30,451 nt of DNA from a virus (Duplodnaviria; Heunggongvirae; Uroviricota; Caudoviricetes): positions 1-30,451 of IMG/VR virus record IMGVR_UViG_2728369554_000010; one strand, written 5' to 3'. This document shows, in pieces, positions 1 through 6,059 of the stretch; position 1 is the stretch's first letter, and each line of letters opens with the position of its first letter. Below the pieces are notes generated by a model, which made no database searches, was not told the DNA's origin, and saw only the letters and a program-made list of their open reading frames with translations. The position numbers were made by a program, and so were the translations under genes.

Positions 1-996
1 TTAACGAACCAGCCAGACCAGAATCAGGATAATCGCGACTAACAGTATCCACAGCGCGGGACGCGTTGCCATATTTTGCAACGTGTCCATCATCGGTGGA
101 AAAGGATTAAGCAGCGGTTGCATATCACGCGGCTCAATCCCTTTAACCCGCCGTTGATAAAGCTGGTTAAGAATATCCTCGGCCTGGGCAGAAGAAAGCG
201 ATGATTGCGCAGAAAGGCCATATTTTTGCTGGATATATGCCGATAACGCCGCCAGTTCACTGGCATCTAAAGGTTGTTTTAGCGCCATCTGTAGTGATTC
301 CAGTGTCGGCGTATTTTGCTGGCTTAGCGTCTGACGCGCCTGTAGCCAGGTCACCAGATGGTTAAACAGTTTCGCTGGAATTAACTCGCCATCTTTCACC
401 CCGGAAAGTTCCAGCATCGATTGCCAGATCTGTTTGCTGGGTTCCCCCGTTGCTGCCGCAAGTTTGGTCACCAGCTGTTTGAGCGCATTGTGCTCCGCCG
501 GTAATAAAGGACGGTCGGTCGCCTCGCGCTGCTGTGGTTGCGGAATAACCATCTTCCCTTCCTGCAACAGGGTGAGAATGGTTTTTAATTGCTCCGGTGA
601 GAGCTGATTCAGCGGCGTCTGACCAAAGTTATGACGGATATAATCCGTGACCGCCTGACGATTATTCCCCAGACGTAAATACTCCCCTAATTGCGCTAAA
701 AGCTGGCGGGCAGAATGGCTTTTTTGCGCGGCCAACAGACGTTGCGCCAGATTATGCTCAGCGGCAGGGAAGTGACGCGAAAGCAGCGGTGAATCTCCCG
801 ACAGACCAATATCGTGCCTGATACCCGCCCACAGTTCTGCTCTTTGTTGTTGCGTCAGTGAGGTCACTTTCGTCATTAAGCTTTCCAGCGAAGTACGTTG
901 CTGACTGGATAAAGGCTGATTGCCCGCGCCAGACGGCAGGTTATCTCCCTGACCTGGTGGTTGCCCAGGAGGAGGGCCGGAAATAGGTTGTATCAT
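1..996 (-). CDS. flk: Flk-like flagellar regulator, C-terminal membrane anchor (chromosomal flank)
   Basis: 331-aa ORF; Pro/Gln-rich N-terminus (MIQPISGPPPGQPPGQ) and C-terminal hydrophobic anchor (ALWILLVAIILILVWLV) match my recollection of E. coli Flk; core-genome-like composition. Confidence 0.75.
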   Translation of the reverse strand: MIQPISGPPPGQPPGQGDNLPSGAGNQPLSSQQRTSLESLMTKVTSLTQQQRAELWAGIRHDIGLSGDSPLLSRHFPAAEHNLAQRLLAAQKSHSARQLLAQLGEYLRLGNNRQAVTDYIRHNFGQTPLNQLSPEQLKTILTLLQEGKMVIPQPQQREATDRPLLPAEHNALKQLVTKLAAATGEPSKQIWQSMLELSGVKDGELIPAKLFNHLVTWLQARQTLSQQNTPTLESLQMALKQPLDASELAALSAYIQQKYGLSAQSSLSSAQAEDILNQLYQRRVKGIEPRDMQPLLNPFPPMMDTLQNMATRPALWILLVAIILILVWLVR

Positions 997-1198
997 TACG
1001 TATCCTTATACCTGAAATCTTCGCAAGTATGCCTGGCCGCGAGATTATGGCACACTTGTCTGGTTAACTCTCGTCTCATACAGGTAACACAAACGTGAAA
1101 ATCCTTGTTGATGAAAAAGATGATGAGTTAATTTATTGATATAAAAGGATTTGTATCAACGTATGTCCACGCAGTGACCACATTTTCGAGGTATAGTC

Positions 1199-1230
1199 AA
1201 AGCCCGTAAAATATGCGGGCTTTATAATTC
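1199..1230 (+). terminator. Orphan hairpin (AAAGCCCG-loop-CGGGCTTT) followed by T-rich run
   Basis: Inverted repeat with 8-nt loop then TTATAATTCTT; no plus-strand ORF upstream in the window. Confidence 0.3.
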
Positions 1231-1315
1231 TTGCTTTGCCCTCTTTTCAAACCATAAAATTTGTGTGCCTTTTTAGGGGAGTTAGTTTTATCTTTGATAT
1301 TATGGAGAATTATTC

Positions 1316-2056
1316 ATGCTTCATTGGGTTTGTACAAAATGTCAGTCTAAAAATTCTACGAAGGAATCAGTGTGTCCTGCGTGTGGAACTTCTTTTTGGT
1401 CGACGCAGAAAAAAGAAAGGAGAGGGTGTTTATTGTTGGTTGTAATGTTTTTCGTTGTGTTTTGGGTTATTGGGCAATTATCCGGAAACGAATCCGATTC
1501 ACAGGTAAATAATATTCCATCGAAAGATCATATTAGTGATGAACTTGCTTTATCTGGAGTAGACAAGGCGAAACCGTATTCTTTTGTGCGTTATGATGAC
1601 ATAAGTTATGCGGGACGAAAAAGATTTAAGGTTTTTATAGTGTCGCCTGAGTCTCAAGATTTAGAATCAAGAGCTTCGACAGCAATGGCCGCGGCTATTG
1701 AGTGGCAGAAAGAGAAAAGAGCTGACTTTGTATCTGTGTTGCTTCTACCTACGGAAAATTCTGAAGGTAGTTATCGGTTGGCAATGGTTGATTATTCTCC
1801 GGATGGTTGCGGAACTGGTGCTGTATGTGATAATAAAAAATGGACTATATTGTCTAGTGACGTAATATTAACGAAATCGCAACTTCAATCTATATCCTTG
1901 TGGAATGAGTATAAGAAAAAGTTTGCGGGTAATAATGAGATTTTGGATTTAAAGGAAGAAAAGAAATTGAAGCAGTTTATTAGTAAACAGCTAAATATTC
2001 CTGTTAAGGATGTATTTACTCCAGATATTTTTCCTTTAAAGAAAATCGAAGATTAA
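1316..2056 (+). CDS. Hypothetical zinc-ribbon membrane protein (N-terminal C-x2-C...C-x2-C, one TM helix, about 190-aa C-terminal domain)
   Basis: 246-aa ORF with GGAG 8 nt upstream of ATG; CTKCQ...CPACG motif then hydrophobic LLLVVMFFVVFWVIG; strongly AT-rich relative to flank, suggesting horizontal acquisition. Confidence 0.6.
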   Translation: MLHWVCTKCQSKNSTKESVCPACGTSFWSTQKKERRGCLLLVVMFFVVFWVIGQLSGNESDSQVNNIPSKDHISDELALSGVDKAKPYSFVRYDDISYAGRKRFKVFIVSPESQDLESRASTAMAAAIEWQKEKRADFVSVLLLPTENSEGSYRLAMVDYSPDGCGTGAVCDNKKWTILSSDVILTKSQLQSISLWNEYKKKFAGNNEILDLKEEKKLKQFISKQLNIPVKDVFTPDIFPLKKIED

Positions 2057-2103
2057 CAAAATAAATAGACGAGACTGAATTAGTATTATTGTAATCTTTA
2101 ACT

Positions 2104-2165
2104 GGCACCCTCACTTGTGAGGGTGCCAAAAAGAAAACCCGCAGTTTTTACGCTGCGGGTTTCTG
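2104..2165. terminator. Convergent terminator region with two hairpins between the zinc-ribbon gene and the YafO-like gene
   Basis: GGCACCCTCA-CTTG-TGAGGGTGCC, then A-tract, then CCCGCAG-TTTTTAC-CTGCGGG flanked by T run; reads as terminator on both strands. Confidence 0.5.
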
Positions 2166-2182
2166 GGAGAAAATCGGGCTAT

Positions 2183-2563
2183 TTATGAGTTCTGGAATTC
2201 TTCAGCCCGTCTTTCCAGTTCAGCCATGAAAGAAGTTTTGGCTTTTTCGTGAGCATCTGGGGCCATGATGCTGATGATTTGTATATTGTCATAATCCATC
2301 CAGTGCCTTGTATAAACCAGATAGATATTTGAAGTTCTGTCTATTTGGGCTTTGCTTTTCTTCCATGGTGGTTCTGACGGTAGTCTTATGTGTAATTTAT
2401 ATACAAACGAACCACATAATCTTGCGTTATCTTCCCACTGCCCTTCATTGCCGAATCTGTCAGGGAGAACACCGGTATTTAACCAGTTTTCCAGAGCCTT
2501 TCCGTAAACTTTTGCAATGTCCTGGTATTCAACATCTTTATGAATGCTTACTTTGCTTGCCAT
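2183..2563 (-). CDS. YafO-family toxin-like protein
   Basis: 126 aa; motifs GVLPDRFG, HIRL, YLVYTRH, IISIMAPDAHEKAK, MAELERRAEEF align with my recollection of E. coli YafO (GVLPDIFG, HIHL, HLVYCQG, LIAILKPEPHKLAR, MAEAF); start overlaps the upstream stop. Confidence 0.5.
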   Translation of the reverse strand: MASKVSIHKDVEYQDIAKVYGKALENWLNTGVLPDRFGNEGQWEDNARLCGSFVYKLHIRLPSEPPWKKSKAQIDRTSNIYLVYTRHWMDYDNIQIISIMAPDAHEKAKTSFMAELERRAEEFQNS

Positions 2564-3189
2564 CAGGAAAACTCCGGTGCCGGGAGTCCCATGTTTTTAT
2601 GCTCGGCAATAATCATTGCTTTCACATTTCCGTCAGACAGCGTATTGCCCAGGCTGGTTGTTTTGTCTGGTGCGGTGCTTCGTTTGATGGTGTTGATGGC
2701 ATCACGAGCGATAAACTCTCCCTGCGCAATTGCCCGACCAAAACGAACCAGTTTATTGCGATAGGCGATTCTTTGCTCTAGGCTATCCGGATACATTTTT
2801 GCCAGGTTATCCGGATCCATTACAATTTTGACAGCCTCTTTAACACGGGTGTGCTGCTTAATTGACTCTTCGCATATTTTTATGATTTTTGCGGTTTTGT
2901 CAGTAAACAGTGCTCCCTTGCCTCTGTTCTGTCGTTCTTCAATGACTGCATTGAGCGCGGCGCGCATGTTGTCATTCAGCCCGTTGATATATTCAATAGC
3001 TTCTTCGAGAGGCAGAAACACCTGACCATCATGATGCTCAAATGTAAGCATTGAAACCACTCTGGCGTGTGTCGCGGATTCAATAACTGTTGTTGGTAGT
3101 ATCGTGCTTTTAGCTGGCACCGGAGCCAGTGATGCTGTCAGAGCTGTAGTAATAGCAGCAATGGCAGCAGACTTTGATTTTCGTTTCAT
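2563..3189 (-). CDS. Hypothetical signal-peptide (secreted/periplasmic) protein, translationally coupled to the YafO-like gene
   Basis: ORF 2563-3201; preferred start MKRKSKS at about 3189 with GGAG 6-7 nt upstream; N-terminus has basic n-region, Ala/Thr-rich h-region and PVPA-K cleavage-like site; no resemblance to YafN/Phd antitoxins. Confidence 0.5.
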   Translation of the reverse strand: MKRKSKSAAIAAITTALTASLAPVPAKSTILPTTVIESATHARVVSMLTFEHHDGQVFLPLEEAIEYINGLNDNMRAALNAVIEERQNRGKGALFTDKTAKIIKICEESIKQHTRVKEAVKIVMDPDNLAKMYPDSLEQRIAYRNKLVRFGRAIAQGEFIARDAINTIKRSTAPDKTTSLGNTLSDGNVKAMIIAEHKNMGLPAPEFS

Positions 3190-3261
3190 AATGCACTCCA
3201 CAGGTTGATGTGTTCAGCATATCGCAAATAGCAGCTTGTATAAAGAAACGCCACATCAGCA

Positions 3262-3523
3262 GCGATCGTTTTACGCGCTTTTCTTCTTGTTGCGATCCTT
3301 TTTTTCAGTTTTATTTTGGAGCTTAATTTTGTGCAGGCCGCGCCGTGTCTGCCTTCTTTGTTTGATGGCTGTTTGATGCGATCCTTTCGTGATCGTTTTT
3401 TTGTCTCGCGTAAAGTATGAAAACTCTTTTAATATCATGCGGTTTTATTGCTCCGGCCATTTGTGCGATCGTAAAAACCACTTTGAAAACTGCAAAAAAT
3501 TTCAAAGCGTGAAATTTCAGATC
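3262..3523. promoter_or_regulatory. GATC-rich intergenic region with repeated GCGATC(G/C)TTTT-like motifs
   Basis: Six GATC sites in about 260 bp (near 3264, 3294, 3380, 3391, 3467, 3520), several inside a reiterated GCGATC-T-run motif; lies upstream of the secreted-protein/YafO-like operon. Confidence 0.35.
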
Positions 3524-3628
3524 TTCGCTTTTCCCTCAGTTGCTGCGCGGGCTGGCGGTCATTTTTGCACGGCAGAAAACTGAAAAACTGTTTCGACACG
3601 AAACCCGCGGGTTGGAGGGGGTAGCGCG

Positions 3629-3671
3629 GTTTACGTCACCTCACGCTTTACGTCACACCGTTTACGCGGTG
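3629..3671. repeat. Three direct repeats of TTTACG(T/C) motif (iteron-like) near the prophage boundary
   Basis: GTTTACGTCAC, CTTTACGTCAC, CGTTTACGCGG at 15-17 bp spacing; adjacent GTTTCG-ACA-CGAAAC and AACCCGCGGGTT palindromes at about 3586-3612. Confidence 0.4.
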
Positions 3672-3789
3672 TGCGCATACAGCGCCAGAATGGCACGCAG
3701 AACGCATTAATCAGGTGGCAGATATGAAAACGCACGACCGGAGCCGTGCGTTGCGTGATGGGCGTTTATGGGGGTGGTATGCCCGGTGA

Positions 3790-5487
3790 TCAGGCGATAA
3801 GGTCACCGTATTTTTCGCGCAGGCTCGTAGCCTGTTTGGCGTCTGCGGCAAGTTCGCTGCTGTTTGTTGGTGCGCCGGTGTTGCTGTGGGTGTGGTTTGC
3901 AGTGTGTGTGGCCAGCAACTGAACCAGATCCAGAATATCAATCAACAACGTCAGCAGATTAAGTCCGGATTTTTCCCGTGAGCCACCGCGACCAATAAAT
4001 ACTGTCGGGGCTGTAAACTCCAGACCACCGTCCGCCCGGCATGTTCTGCGGCCTCCCACGTTTTCAGTAAGGTCGCGCTCAATCGTGGATGTCGCCCCTT
4101 TGAGTTTAGTCAGCAAATCCTGCGCTACCATCTGGATATGCTCACCGGCTGCGATCGCATAATGACCAGTAGTAATGTGTTCTGTCTGGCCTGTCATCAG
4201 CTTGCTGGTTCCCAGAACGCTGGTTATGTCGTTTGCCTGTACTGTTGTTGTTCTGGTTGTTGTTGTGCGTTCTTCCTGATCGCTGTTAATGGTTCGTCTG
4301 GCTGAATGCTCCCTGATTTGCTGATCGGTTTCTCTGTGCCAGCTTCCGTCAGTCGTGACGCGCTGAAACACTTCTGCGCGCTGTTGCTGCAGCTGTTCGC
4401 CGGGCTTTACATCAGGCAGGTTATGGCCAGCGGGTAAGATTTGCCTGATAACGGGTTTGTCCGGACGTCCTTCAATGTTGGATATTTCCACGATGGTGCC
4501 TGCCGGTGGGTAGGCAAAACATCCCGCCTCACTGCCAGCCATGGGGACGGGGAGCGGTACTGCCGGGTAAACGGGCGTGTCGCTTTTATCGTTGCCGTTC
4601 TCATCAAGCAACTGCACATCGACGGCGTAGCGTGGGCGGAAACTGTCGGCCACGTCGCCCAGGGTGGTGGGCTCCGTTGGCGCAATGACGCGCGCCAGCC
4701 GGGTATGTAGCGTACCGCTGGCCAGTTCCGGGAACTGTGTTTCCATTTGTCTGCGTAATGGTGATTTGGAAACAGGGTTACCCGTGGCGGTAAGGCGCTC
4801 CCATGTCAGGGTCATTTTCTCGTTGTTGAGGGCTACACGGGTAATGCGCCCGGCCGGTAGGTTCACGCCCGGTCGCACAGTTTCCATAAACATGATGTCG
4901 ATGCTGTTTCCGCCGCTTTGCCCGAGTGTGTACTGTTGCGGAATATCCGGTATTGTAATACTGGCAAATCGTGAATCAGCTGCGCTTCCCACAAATACAG
5001 AACCGTCCGGCATAGGGTGCCAGACGTAATCGCTGATACTGAATGCTCGCCCCAGTTGGCTGAGCAGTTGTGCTCCGCTGCCACTGTGGGTGATGTAGGG
5101 AGTTGGTATACTGGCATAATCCGCATCCGGAGTGATAAAAACGATACCGCTTTGTCGCCCCAGATTATCGAGTACCCCCCGCAACGTCGGGTGTTGCATG
5201 GAGCAAGGGAAATCAAAATCCAGCACAGCAGCCGCTTCACGAATAAAAAGGCGACGTGAGCCATTTTCAGCAGGTTGATCGCGCTCAATGTAGCCGGAGA
5301 AATAGCGCCATGCTTCACCGTCACGGCCGAGATCAATTTGTACCATTGCGCCGGCAAGGCTGTGTTCGGGTGACAGATTGTTAACAGAAATGAAGCCACG
5401 ACCGGCAGCATTCAGGGTAAGAACAAGGCTTATATCGGCAATTTCCACCTGTTCGCCATTAATCATGCAGCGTTGTATCAATTTCAT
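3790..5487 (-). CDS. Phage tail protein, putative baseplate central spike/hub-like (C-terminal HxH apex-like motif)
   Basis: 565 aa; last gene of the late operon, start overlaps upstream stop; C-terminal LLATHTANHTHSNTGAPT resembles the His-rich apex of P2 gpV-type spikes (from memory); function not certain. Confidence 0.4.
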   Translation of the reverse strand: MKLIQRCMINGEQVEIADISLVLTLNAAGRGFISVNNLSPEHSLAGAMVQIDLGRDGEAWRYFSGYIERDQPAENGSRRLFIREAAAVLDFDFPCSMQHPTLRGVLDNLGRQSGIVFITPDADYASIPTPYITHSGSGAQLLSQLGRAFSISDYVWHPMPDGSVFVGSAADSRFASITIPDIPQQYTLGQSGGNSIDIMFMETVRPGVNLPAGRITRVALNNEKMTLTWERLTATGNPVSKSPLRRQMETQFPELASGTLHTRLARVIAPTEPTTLGDVADSFRPRYAVDVQLLDENGNDKSDTPVYPAVPLPVPMAGSEAGCFAYPPAGTIVEISNIEGRPDKPVIRQILPAGHNLPDVKPGEQLQQQRAEVFQRVTTDGSWHRETDQQIREHSARRTINSDQEERTTTTRTTTVQANDITSVLGTSKLMTGQTEHITTGHYAIAAGEHIQMVAQDLLTKLKGATSTIERDLTENVGGRRTCRADGGLEFTAPTVFIGRGGSREKSGLNLLTLLIDILDLVQLLATHTANHTHSNTGAPTNSSELAADAKQATSLREKYGDLIA

Positions 5488-6059
5488 GTTTTCCCTTCCT
5501 CTTTCACGCTCCCGATGCCAACAGCATCCAGACCAGAGCCAACGGCATCATTGATTTTTTTCCAGAACGAACTTTGCGTATTCATGCCTTTGTCTGGTAC
5601 CTGTTCGCTGCCATTCTGGGTCTGCTGTCTGGCGATGGTTTTTTGCGAACCGCTGCGTGCGGATGCTTTCTCTGGCACGCTTAATTTTTCCCTGAGAGTA
5701 AAGGTGATCTGCCAGTGCATTTTTCCCTGTTGTTCCGTGGCATCAATGCCACCAGAAAATACCCCCTGTCGCATATTGATTGCCTTCGCGGTAGCGTTAG
5801 CAATGCGATATGTTTTTTTAGCACCGTTGCTTTCTGTTGCCTCCGCAAGCTGAAAAATACGGGTCAGAATAGCTTCATCGTTAAAATCAATAACCCCCGA
5901 CACGCGCAGCTCTTTAGCCTTGTTTCCCTGCTGGGCGCTCGTGGTGCTGGTTGACTGTCCGGACATATCTTTGTCCGGTAGTTGCATGGTGGCGCTGACG
6001 GTGATGTTACGCAGCAGAATGGCTTCCCCGTCAAGCGCAAGGACAATCATCTGGGTCAT
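5484..6059 (-). CDS. Phage tail-associated protein, function unknown
   Basis: 191-aa ORF whose stop overlaps the spike-like gene start; sits in the tail operon; no motif I can name. Confidence 0.4.
   Translation of the reverse strand: MTQMIVLALDGEAILLRNITVSATMQLPDKDMSGQSTSTTSAQQGNKAKELRVSGVIDFNDEAILTRIFQLAEATESNGAKKTYRIANATAKAINMRQGVFSGGIDATEQQGKMHWQITFTLREKLSVPEKASARSGSQKTIARQQTQNGSEQVPDKGMNTQSSFWKKINDAVGSGLDAVGIGSVKEEGKT

What the first reader, a model, noticed from the sequence alone, without database searches (positions are those of the whole stretch)
2183..3189. YafO-like toxin translationally coupled to a signal-peptide protein rather than a Phd/YafN-type antitoxin
The 126-aa protein shows YafO-like motifs, but the overlapping upstream gene encodes an about 208-aa protein with a Sec-type signal peptide and no resemblance to known YafN antitoxins. 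A cytoplasmic mRNA-interferase-type toxin paired with an apparently exported partner is atypical for type II toxin-antitoxin pairs. This could be a novel antitoxin class, a toxin domain reused in a different system, or a mis-called start. The pair sits at the prophage/chromosome junction in AT-rich DNA.
Basis: partly seen in the sequence, partly recalled or inferred. Interest (0 to 1): 0.6.

Follow-up and report, generated by a model that had tools for sequence, protein, structure and literature searches.

The report
YafO-type toxin with unknown partner protein
This is a small mobile two-gene toxin-antitoxin-type cassette at the end of a prophage, in which a well-known type of RNA-cutting toxin is always paired with an undescribed 200-residue protein whose conserved front end looks like a secretion signal, which no known antitoxin has.

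Summary
On the minus strand, a 208-aa ORF (3189→2563) overlaps by one base (TGATG) a 126-aa ORF (2563→2183). The 126-aa protein is a clear YafO-family, RelE-fold toxin: Pfam E 1e-27, 31% identity to K-12 YafO, and structural matches to HigB, RelE and YafQ.

The 208-aa protein matches no Pfam, NCBIfam, PHROG, PADLOC or PDB entry and is unrelated to YafN. Its start is not mis-called.

Its N-terminus has the layout of a Sec signal peptide: basic residues, then an Ala/Leu/Ile-rich core, then V-P-A. This layout is kept in almost all relatives. However, the motif APVPAxS is the most conserved stretch of the whole protein, which is not how ordinary signal peptides evolve.

In about 65 loci the partner always sits directly upstream of the toxin. 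These loci include prophage ends, P2-like prophage cargo slots and plain Vibrio and Yersinia chromosome. The toxin is knocked out three times with the partner intact, and the reverse was never seen.

My verdict is a type II-like toxin-antitoxin cassette with a new antitoxin family. Whether the N-terminus drives export or binds the toxin is unresolved. No signal-peptide predictor or complex model could be run. Nothing in the searched literature describes it.

The parts
2183..2563 (-). Toxin gene, 126 aa: YafO-family, RelE-superfamily fold. It is predicted to be active because the family-invariant residues His58, Arg76 and His105 are present.
2563..3189 (-). Partner gene, 208 aa: putative antitoxin of an undescribed family. 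RefSeq calls it 'hypothetical protein' or, wrongly, 'SufA'.
   Evidence: No Pfam, NCBIfam, PHROG, PADLOC or PDB match. Only 32 representatives among 1.8 billion proteins. Always directly upstream of the toxin.
3112..3189 (-). Codons 1-26: N-terminal signal-peptide-like segment, with a basic n-region, an Ala/Ile/Leu/Thr core and V-P-A at positions -3 to -1.
   Evidence: Composition metrics. Conserved architecture. AF2 predicts helix 3-18 followed by strand 21-25.
3106..3126 (-). Codons 22-28, motif A-P-V-P-A-K-S: the most conserved stretch of the partner protein.
   Evidence: Mean pairwise identity 0.88, against 0.20-0.58 elsewhere. A22, P23, V24, P25 and S28 are nearly invariant in 25 diverse members.
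3025..3105 (-). Codons 29-55: variable Ser/Thr-rich linker, predicted disordered.
   Evidence: pLDDT 33. Pairwise identity 0.20.
2626..3024 (-). Codons 56-188: strand plus long-helix bundle, carrying the conserved FLPLxEA (57-64) and FGRA (150-153) motifs.
2566..2625 (-). Codons 189-208: conserved C-terminal motif V-K-x-M-I-x-A-E-H-K-x-L-G-L-x-x-P-x-F, ending at the toxin start codon. It is a candidate toxin-binding element.
   Evidence: E196 and H197 are invariant; I193, L200 and G201 are nearly so. Pairwise identity 0.56. It is the part still recognisable in a very distant partner (hhalign E 1.7e-4).
2561..2565 (-). TGATG junction: the partner stop and toxin start share base 2563. The toxin's GGAG Shine-Dalgarno motif lies at 2572-2575, inside the partner ORF.
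   Evidence: Read from the sequence. Junctions in relatives range from a small stop/start overlap to an 11-nt spacer.
2134..2163 (-). Intrinsic-terminator-like hairpin 20 nt after the toxin stop, marking the end of the operon.
   Evidence: 11-bp stem, 6 GC pairs, T-rich tail.
2166..3293 (-). The exchangeable cassette: the two genes plus about 100 nt of leader or promoter region.
   Evidence: Against the otherwise collinear E. coli STEC711 locus, which has hok/gef in this slot, homology stops at 2165 and resumes at 3294. The same stretch (2117-3289) is found at 98% identity at the end of a P2-like prophage at serS.

Best explanation
The pair is a self-contained, horizontally mobile toxin-antitoxin-type cassette carried as prophage cargo.

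The 126-aa protein is a RelE-fold, YafO-family ribosome-dependent mRNA endonuclease. Family, fold and conserved His/Arg/His are shown here; the activity is inferred from E. coli YafO.

The 208-aa protein is its cognate antidote and belongs to a previously undescribed family that replaces the Phd/YefM-type YafN (inferred from comparative genomics). It is made from the same transcript just ahead of the toxin. The shared stop/start base presumably keeps toxin synthesis tied to antidote synthesis, which is inferred and not shown. I infer that it neutralises the toxin by direct binding in the cytoplasm through its two strongly conserved terminal motifs: the N-terminal helix plus APVPAxS strand, and the C-terminal AEHKxLGL helix.

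I lean, narrowly, towards this reading of the signal-peptide-like N-terminus: it is mainly a toxin-neutralising helix-then-strand segment of the kind seen in Vibrio cholerae HigA2, not a device that simply ships the protein to the periplasm. It may still engage the Sec machinery as a secondary property.

The cassette most likely serves as an addiction or anti-phage (abortive-infection) module for the prophage. This is inferred from its position in prophage cargo slots, where a hok/gef toxin gene, nuclease genes and other cargo alternate with it.
For: Toxin identity.

Partner unrelated to YafN or any other family.

Co-occurrence. In every locus recovered with a toxin of this subfamily, a partner gene lies immediately upstream on the same strand. 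This covers about 65 loci: 8 GTDB species, Vibrio, Yersinia-type chromosome, P2-like prophages, 26 IMG/VR contigs and 14 metagenome contigs.

Minimal module. It is two genes between rne and sbcB in Vibrio, and between an aldose-epimerase gene and gapA in a Yersinia-type chromosome.

Erosion is one-sided. The toxin carries independent nonsense or frameshift lesions with an intact partner in L005, L010 and L063. No locus has an intact toxin with a broken partner. Where the toxin is gone, the partner is a truncated remnant.

Rates of change. The partner evolves faster than the toxin in 105 of 105 comparisons (35% against 59% mean identity), and the two diverge in step (Spearman 0.52, p 9e-9).

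N-terminus. It is translated and constrained. APVPAxS is the most conserved stretch. AF2 predicts helix 3-18 then strand 21-25. The closest solved relative of the toxin is VcHigB2. Its antitoxin neutralises it with an N-terminal disordered segment that folds into a helix followed by a strand on a large hydrophobic interface (PMC5416850 abstract).

Members that break signal-peptide rules. Two members still sit next to intact toxins. P0042 has an acidic n-region and no basic residue, and its start is fixed by an upstream stop codon. P0048 has a Glu in its hydrophobic core.

Cargo-slot context.
Against: No binding, toxicity or rescue was tested.

The partner has no recognisable DNA-binding domain and is basic (pI 7-9.7), while the toxin is neutral to acidic. 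This is the reverse of most type II pairs.

The N-terminus has a full n-h-c signal-peptide layout in about 30 of 33 distinct members. The core sequence varies while its hydrophobicity is kept, as in real signal peptides. A very distant probable relative has an even more hydrophobic, membrane-like N-terminus. This argues that targeting to Sec or the membrane is itself selected.

The AF2 strand pairing of residues 21-25 with 56-60 has low confidence (pLDDT 56-61), and the alignment is shallow (24 sequences).
Confidence: 0.6

Rival explanations
1. The N-terminus is a working Sec signal and export is part of the mechanism. The precursor binds the toxin in the cytoplasm. Free or toxin-bound antidote is continually removed by SecA/SecYEG translocation and signal-peptidase cleavage after V-P-A. 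Export therefore plays the role that Lon or Clp proteolysis plays for ordinary antitoxins. When synthesis stops, through prophage loss or phage-induced shut-off, the toxin is freed.
For: The n-h-c layout is canonical, with charge, core hydrophobicity and length within the range of classic signal peptides. It is kept across the family down to below 20% identity, while the core sequence drifts. The next 27 residues form a disordered, variable linker. A distant branch keeps a hydrophobic N-terminus. From general knowledge: sequences of this kind are usually sufficient for Sec targeting in E. coli.
Against: The cleavage-region motif is far more conserved than signal peptidase needs. Two members with intact toxins lack signal features. 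No antitoxin is known to work this way: no paper was found that links a YafO-type toxin, or any type II antitoxin, to an exported partner. No predictor or experiment was available.
Confidence: 0.27
2. The upstream ORF is mainly an export-monitoring leader of the SecM/VemP kind, not an antidote. A signal peptide at the front and a conserved peptide at the very end of the ORF would control ribosome behaviour at the stop codon, which overlaps the toxin start. Toxin translation would then respond to the state of the Sec pathway or the membrane.
For: The ORF is about the size of SecM and VemP (from my own knowledge: 170 and 159 aa). It has a signal-like N-terminus. Its last ~20 residues are conserved and end exactly at the toxin's start. 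The toxin's Shine-Dalgarno motif lies in a small hairpin in the window.
Against: The whole 150-residue helical body is under purifying selection and folds confidently. This is unnecessary for a leader. The C-terminal tail and junction are not fixed: Vibrio has a shortened tail and an 11-nt spacer. No conserved RNA structure was seen at the junction. A RelE-type toxin with no antidote would be hard to carry.
Confidence: 0.06
3. The two genes are functionally independent prophage cargo. One would be a secreted or envelope protein, for example a superinfection-exclusion factor. The other would be a YafO-like toxin that is inactive or is controlled by something else.
For: The location is a slot for miscellaneous cargo genes. 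The partner resembles no known antitoxin.
Against: The adjacency is strict and conserved in about 65 loci and in non-phage chromosomal sites. The two genes diverge in step. Loss is one-sided. No third gene is shared by all contexts.
Confidence: 0.05

Closest known systems
YafN-YafO of E. coli K-12 (dinB-yafNOP operon)
   Same: The toxin family is the same (PF13957), with shared His58, Arg76 and His105 and the C-terminal AExF. The antidote gene comes first and the genes abut.
   Different: Toxin identity is only 31%, and the score is far below the NCBIfam ortholog cut-off (42.7 against 153). The partner is a 208-aa helical protein with a signal-like N-terminus, not the 97-aa Phd/YefM-type YafN. 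The cassette is prophage cargo, not part of the SOS operon.
HigB2-HigA2 of Vibrio cholerae
   Different: There is no sequence similarity between the partners. HigA2 has a helix-turn-helix domain and the toxin gene comes first. The N-terminus here additionally has a full signal-peptide layout.
Toxin-antitoxin-chaperone (TAC) system HigB1-HigA1-SecB-like chaperone of M. tuberculosis
   Same: Mtb HigB1 is the second-best structural match of the toxin. From my own knowledge, it is the one known case where an antitoxin carries a hydrophobic, aggregation-prone extension that ties it to export-type chaperone machinery.
   Different: In TAC the extension is C-terminal and a dedicated third gene encodes the chaperone. 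Here there are only two genes and the segment is N-terminal.
SecM-secA and VemP-secDF2 export-monitoring leaders
   Same: An upstream ORF with a signal peptide precedes a gene whose translation it could control, and a conserved peptide sits at the ORF's end (from my own knowledge of those systems).
   Different: No arrest motif was identified. The body of the protein is conserved and folded. The downstream gene is a toxin, not a Sec component.
hok/gef-type toxin gene (type I toxin-antitoxin family) in the same prophage slot
   Same: It occupies exactly the same position, between the DUF4875 gene and the baseplate gene, in E. coli STEC711. It also lies next to the related pair in P2-like prophages.
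   Different: It encodes a small membrane toxin that, from my own knowledge, is normally controlled by an antisense RNA. It has no protein partner.

Membership tests
YafO toxin family (Pfam PF13957) | Match to the family model above the curated cut-off | tested here: met
   96.5 bits against a cut-off of 25, E 1.1e-27, covering 100 of 101 model positions
YafO toxin family (Pfam PF13957) | Ortholog of E. coli K-12 YafO (NCBIfam equivalog PRK09885) | tested here: not met
   42.7 bits against a cut-off of 153, and 31% identity. It is a separate subfamily.
YafO toxin family (Pfam PF13957) | RelE/ParE-superfamily fold with conserved putative catalytic residues | tested here: met
YafO toxin family (Pfam PF13957) | Ribosome-dependent mRNA cleavage and growth inhibition | not testable with these tools
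   Needs expression and cleavage assays.
YafN / Phd-YefM antitoxins | Sequence or profile similarity of the upstream protein to YafN / PF02604 | tested here: not met
   No Pfam hit. hhalign probability 0.6%.
Type II toxin-antitoxin module | Two adjacent co-oriented genes inherited together in unrelated genomic contexts | tested here: met
   About 65 loci with the partner always directly upstream. Correlated divergence.
Type II toxin-antitoxin module | The toxin is harmful without the partner, so decay is one-sided | tested here: met
   The toxin is disrupted with an intact partner in L005, L010 and L063. The reverse was never seen. This is indirect evidence only.
Type II toxin-antitoxin module | The antitoxin binds and neutralises the toxin protein | not testable with these tools
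Needs rescue and pull-down assays.
Type II toxin-antitoxin module | The antitoxin carries a DNA-binding domain for autoregulation | tested here: not met
   No HTH, RHH or AbrB-type hit. The model is all long helices. This feature is not universal among type II systems.
Sec-type (signal peptidase I) signal peptide | Basic n-region, 10-15-residue hydrophobic core, small residues at -1 and -3 | tested here: met
   Charge +1 to +4, best 10-residue hydropathy 2.0-2.6, V/I-P-A at residues 22-27 in 17 of 17 members analysed, within the range of 12 reference signals recalled from memory. Exceptions are P0042 and P0048.
Sec-type (signal peptidase I) signal peptide | Call by a trained predictor (SignalP, Phobius, DeepTMHMM) | not tested
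   No such tool was available.
Sec-type (signal peptidase I) signal peptide | Evolves as a loosely constrained targeting sequence, less conserved than the mature protein | tested here: not met
   It has the lowest pN/pS in the gene (0.27). The cleavage-region motif is the most conserved stretch (0.88 identity).
Sec-type (signal peptidase I) signal peptide | The protein is actually translocated and cleaved | not testable with these tools
   Needs fractionation, reporter fusions and N-terminal mass spectrometry.
Tat signal / lipoprotein signal | Twin-arginine motif, or a lipobox with Cys at +1 | tested here: not met
   No RR motif and no conserved Cys in any member.
SufA (the name given in RefSeq) | Fe-S cluster biosynthesis domain | tested here: not met
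   No Pfam or NCBIfam hit of any kind in 25 members. The name is an annotation error.
Known anti-phage defence systems (PADLOC 2.0) | Match of either protein to a defence-system model | tested here: not met
   Only a 14-bit chance-level ThsB hit.

The most novel reading that the evidence does not exclude
The partner really is a Sec substrate, and secretion is the switch. Either the Sec translocon acts as the machine that removes the antidote, an export-driven instead of protease-driven antitoxin turnover. Or the ORF works as an export monitor that gates toxin translation. In both cases a cytoplasmic RNase toxin would be wired to the state of protein export or the membrane, for example as a sensor of phage attack on the envelope.
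Probability: 0.25. Interest if true: 0.85.

Novelty: new variant of a known kind. Interest (0 to 1): 0.52.

Why it matters
YafO is one of the least understood E. coli toxins. It has no solved structure, and YafN is its only known partner.

This work defines a second, conserved partner family for YafO-type toxins that has no detectable similarity to any described protein. It is spread through Enterobacterales and Vibrio, mostly as prophage cargo in slots where toxin and nuclease genes alternate.

The partner's most conserved feature is a signal-peptide-like N-terminus. If that segment binds the toxin, it is a striking look-alike that would fool secretion predictors and annotation pipelines. If it drives export, it would be a new way to make an antitoxin unstable, or to couple a toxin to envelope status.

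Either answer is cheaply testable with deletion constructs. The work also exposes a propagated misannotation ('SufA') in RefSeq.

Tried and rejected
- **Mis-called start or internal start.** Rejected. The upstream GTG at 3201 adds four residues (MECI) that are not conserved outside the near-identical E. coli copies, and it lies upstream of the GGAG (3196-3199) that serves the ATG.
- **Similarity to YafN, SufA or any Pfam, NCBIfam, PHROG, PADLOC or PDB entry.** None found.
- **Joint structure prediction** of a partner-linker-toxin fusion with a paired alignment.
- **RNA antitoxin or riboregulator.** No Rfam match in 1-6000. No meaningful repeats in the leader. No conserved hairpin at the gene junction.
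- **Spanin pair or Tat 'hitch-hiker' export.** Rejected: no lipobox, no twin arginine, and the pair occurs outside lysis cassettes.
- **Link between subfamily-specific tryptophans in the toxin and the APVPA motif.** The positions are aromatic in the other branches too, so this is uninformative.
- **Metagenome scan with the partner alignment.** Failed because the alignment was too divergent. It was repeated with the toxin alignment.
- **Literature.** No paper links YafO-type toxins to a signal-peptide partner or describes this family. A Photorhabdus toxin-antitoxin survey mentions YafO only as a search category, and its supplements were not held.
Full report
**What is there**

On the minus strand of the window, a 208-codon ORF runs from ATG 3189 to its stop at 2565-2563. 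A 126-codon ORF runs from ATG 2563 to its stop at 2183. They share one base in a TGATG junction.

Each start has a GGAG motif at a suitable distance: 3196-3199 for the first ORF and 2572-2575 for the second. A strong terminator-like hairpin (2134-2163) follows the second gene.

The surroundings are as follows:
- flk at 1-996, confirmed by the annotation of a collinear E. coli locus.
- A convergent zinc-ribbon/DUF4875 gene at 1316-2056.
- From 3790 onward, the tail and baseplate genes of a myovirus-type prophage (phrog_2258, E 3e-232).

GC is 42-46% over the pair. It is 34-40% over the DUF4875 gene, 50-55% over flk and 52-59% over the prophage.

**The toxin**

The 126-aa protein matches Pfam YafO_toxin end to end (E 1.1e-27) and PHROG 1651. 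It aligns with E. coli K-12 YafO at 31% identity (E 3e-9). It scores far below NCBI's ortholog threshold (42.7 against 153 bits), so it belongs to a separate subfamily.

The following residues are invariant across this subfamily, a very distant branch and K-12 YafO: Gly38, His58, Arg76, Leu82, Val83, Ile99, Pro102, His105, Ala120, Glu121 and Phe123. The window copy has all of them, so nothing suggests it is inactive.

**The partner**

The 208-aa protein has no significant match in Pfam, NCBIfam, PHROGs, PADLOC or the PDB. This holds for the single sequence, for a profile, and for each of 25 diverse members scanned separately. Profile comparison with YafN gives probability 0.6%.

The family is small. 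The word-indexed search found 39 clusters. An exhaustive HMM search of 1.8 billion representatives found 32. All named sources are Enterobacterales or Vibrio.

Many RefSeq records call it 'iron-sulfur cluster assembly scaffold protein SufA'. Nothing supports that name.

AlphaFold2 on 24 sequences (pLDDT 72) predicts these elements:
- helix 3-18
- short strand 21-25, paired with strand 56-60
- a disordered stretch, 28-54
- long helices 61-89, 99-123 and 137-171
- a final helix, 186-199

**Is the start real, and is the N-terminus a signal peptide?**

The start is real. The N-terminal segment aligns in all full-length relatives, down to about 22% identity. Codons 8-29 have the lowest pN/pS of the gene (0.27, against 0.40 for the core). 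Synonymous divergence there is as high as elsewhere. The constraint therefore acts on the protein, not the RNA. Met48 is not conserved, so no shorter product is indicated.

The segment has the three-part layout of a Sec signal:
- a basic start, net +1 to +4
- a 10-15-residue Ala/Leu/Ile/Met core, with a best 10-residue hydropathy of 2.0-2.6
- V/I-P-A ending at residue 22-27

There is no twin arginine and no lipobox.

Two things are unlike an ordinary signal peptide. First, the motif A-P-V-P-A-x-S is the most conserved stretch of the whole protein. Its mean pairwise identity is 0.88. The figures for the next best motifs are 0.58 and 0.56, and for the linker 0.20.

Second, two divergent members break the signal-peptide rules but sit beside intact 126-codon toxin genes in P2-like prophages:
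- P0042 begins MGATDLDIVTALNASLAPVPVAS. It has no basic residue and two Asp, and its start is fixed by a stop 11 codons upstream.
- P0048 begins MRVAQINKSRIISELSASMAPAPEA, with a Glu in the hydrophobic core.

Against this, a 200-aa protein lies directly upstream of a YafO-like toxin that is only 33% identical to ours. Its similarity to the family is weak and confined to the C-terminus (hhalign E 1.7e-4). Its N-terminus is even more hydrophobic: MRLLGVIIMIASAALGAPLIIGVAL. Hydrophobicity at the N-terminus is therefore an old and persistent property. I could not run SignalP or any equivalent.

**Do the two genes belong together?**

Yes. In every recovered locus with a toxin of this subfamily, a partner gene lies immediately upstream on the same strand. 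The gap ranges from a small overlap to an 11-nt spacer. The loci are:
- 8 species-representative genomes: Buttiauxella, Pseudescherichia, Enterobacter, Kalamiella and four Photorhabdus
- Vibrio parahaemolyticus-type chromosomes
- E. coli P2-like prophages
- a Yersinia-type chromosome
- 26 IMG/VR contigs
- 14 metagenome contigs

In Vibrio the pair lies between rne and DUF496/sbcB. In the Yersinia-type locus it lies between an aldose-epimerase gene and gapA. The unit is therefore just these two genes.

Across 15 diverse pairs, the partner averages 35% identity and the toxin 59%. The toxin is the more conserved of the two in all 105 comparisons. The divergences correlate (Spearman 0.52, p 9e-9).

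Decay is one-sided. The toxin has an in-frame stop at codon 60 in L005 and at codon 88 in L010, and is split in L063. The partner is intact in all three. No locus shows the reverse.

Where the toxin is absent, the partner is a 141-150-aa stump lacking both termini. In one lineage both genes are truncated.

These are the classic signatures of a toxin and its antidote, but they are indirect.

**Mobility and setting**

A collinear E. coli locus (STEC711) has a hok/gef gene in place of the pair. Homology to the window ends at 2165 and resumes at 3294.

The same cassette occurs elsewhere in E. coli:
- At 99% identity next to an 'ATP-dependent nuclease', at the end of the same prophage type inserted near raiA.
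- At 98% identity after ogr, at the end of a P2-like prophage at serS. The shared stretch is window 2117-3289.

A 51%-identical pair lies between gpD and ogr of other P2-like prophages, beside hok/gef. More distant pairs lie between gpA and the portal gene. From my own knowledge, that position is the tin/old anti-phage slot of P2.

Only 23 of 5,426 complete E. coli genomes carry the near-identical pair, and always whole. No deposited phage genome has it, and only one plasmid does, in Pantoea.

**Most likely mechanism**

I conclude that this is a type II-like toxin-antitoxin cassette. A YafO-family ribosome-dependent RNase is held in check by a new kind of protein partner made just ahead of it on the same message (confidence about 0.6).

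Shown here:
- the toxin's family and fold
- the lack of any relationship between the partner and known families
- strict linkage of the two genes
- one-sided decay
- a constrained N-terminus

Inferred:
- toxicity
- neutralisation by direct binding
- the role of the stop/start overlap
- an addiction or anti-phage role

For the N-terminus, two readings are nearly balanced.

(a) It is a toxin-neutralising helix-plus-strand. This would explain why APVPAxS is the best-conserved motif, why AF2 predicts helix then strand, and why members without signal features persist. There is also a precedent. The closest structural relative of the toxin, VcHigB2, is neutralised in exactly this way by the N-terminal segment of HigA2 (PMC5416850).

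(b) It is a genuine Sec or membrane targeting signal. This would explain why the whole n-h-c layout, including the basic start, is kept while the core sequence drifts.

I lean slightly to (a), possibly with (b) as a secondary property. I put (b) as the main mechanism at about 0.27.

An export-monitoring leader model (SecM/VemP-like) and an 'independent cargo genes' model are both possible but poorly supported.

**Novelty**

The toxin family is known, and RefSeq already labels the gene as such. The partner family is uncharacterised, misnamed in databases, and absent from Pfam and from defence-system catalogues. I found nothing in the searchable literature about it.

New antitoxin families for old toxins are not rare, which tempers the score. 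A conserved signal-peptide-like N-terminus on a putative antitoxin is unusual, and it can be tested with a handful of constructs.

Noticed in passing
window 2563-3189; homologs P0003-P0032: RefSeq and UniRef name many members of the partner family 'iron-sulfur cluster assembly scaffold protein SufA'. No Fe-S domain or any other family is detectable in 25 members, so this looks like a propagated annotation error.
   Followed up: yes
window 2166-3293 versus L003 6067-6625: In E. coli STEC711 the same slot, between the DUF4875 gene and the baseplate gene, holds a hok/gef toxin gene instead of the YafO pair. hok/gef also lies beside the related pair in P2-like prophages (L019, L021, L022). The site looks like an exchange point for toxin cassettes.
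   Followed up: partly
window 1316-2056 (+): A 246-aa protein with an N-terminal zinc ribbon (CxxC...CxxC), a hydrophobic stretch (LLLVVMFFVVFWVIG) and a DUF4875 domain (E 3e-34). It lies in 34-40% GC DNA between flk and the pair. Its function is unknown. It is also present in STEC711, and a different zinc-ribbon protein plus a VasI-domain protein occupy the flk-adjacent position in L021.
   Followed up: no
L005 6624-7004; L010 6621-7001; L063 1495-1872: Three independent inactivations of the toxin gene with an intact partner gene: stops at codons 60 and 88, and a split ORF. This is a small natural record of toxin-first erosion.
   Followed up: yes
L016-L018 (P0036), also P0035, P0038, P0039: E. 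coli P2-like prophages carry 141-150-aa partner-gene stumps between gpD and ogr, with no toxin. Both the signal-like N-terminus and the C-terminal motif are missing. The stump's start overlaps the end of gpD.
   Followed up: partly
L074 891-1493 with L074 1501-1857; L075-L077: A very distant YafO-like toxin (33% identity) in phage-like metagenome contigs is preceded by a 192-200-aa protein. That protein has a membrane-like N-terminus and a C-terminal ...SHDLLGLE tail resembling the family motif AEHKxLGL. The partnership may therefore be older than the subfamily studied here.
   Followed up: partly
L001 4165-5634, L002 4133-5602: In the raiA-side copies of this prophage, the pair is flanked by a 489-aa 'ATP-dependent nuclease' and a DNA methyltransferase fragment. 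These may be further defence-type cargo. They were not analysed.
   Followed up: no
window 2183-3189 and the 15 pairs analysed: The charge pattern is the reverse of most type II pairs: the partner is basic (pI 7-9.7) and the toxin is neutral to slightly acidic (pI about 6-8 in most). This is unexplained.
   Followed up: no
window 3249-3264 (-) and 3216-3244 (-): A short terminator-like hairpin lies just upstream of a weak promoter-like TTTATA-17 nt-TATGCT, in the 100-nt leader of the cassette. This suggests the pair is transcribed independently of the tail operon. The promoter match (8 of 12) was below the scanner's threshold.
   Followed up: no
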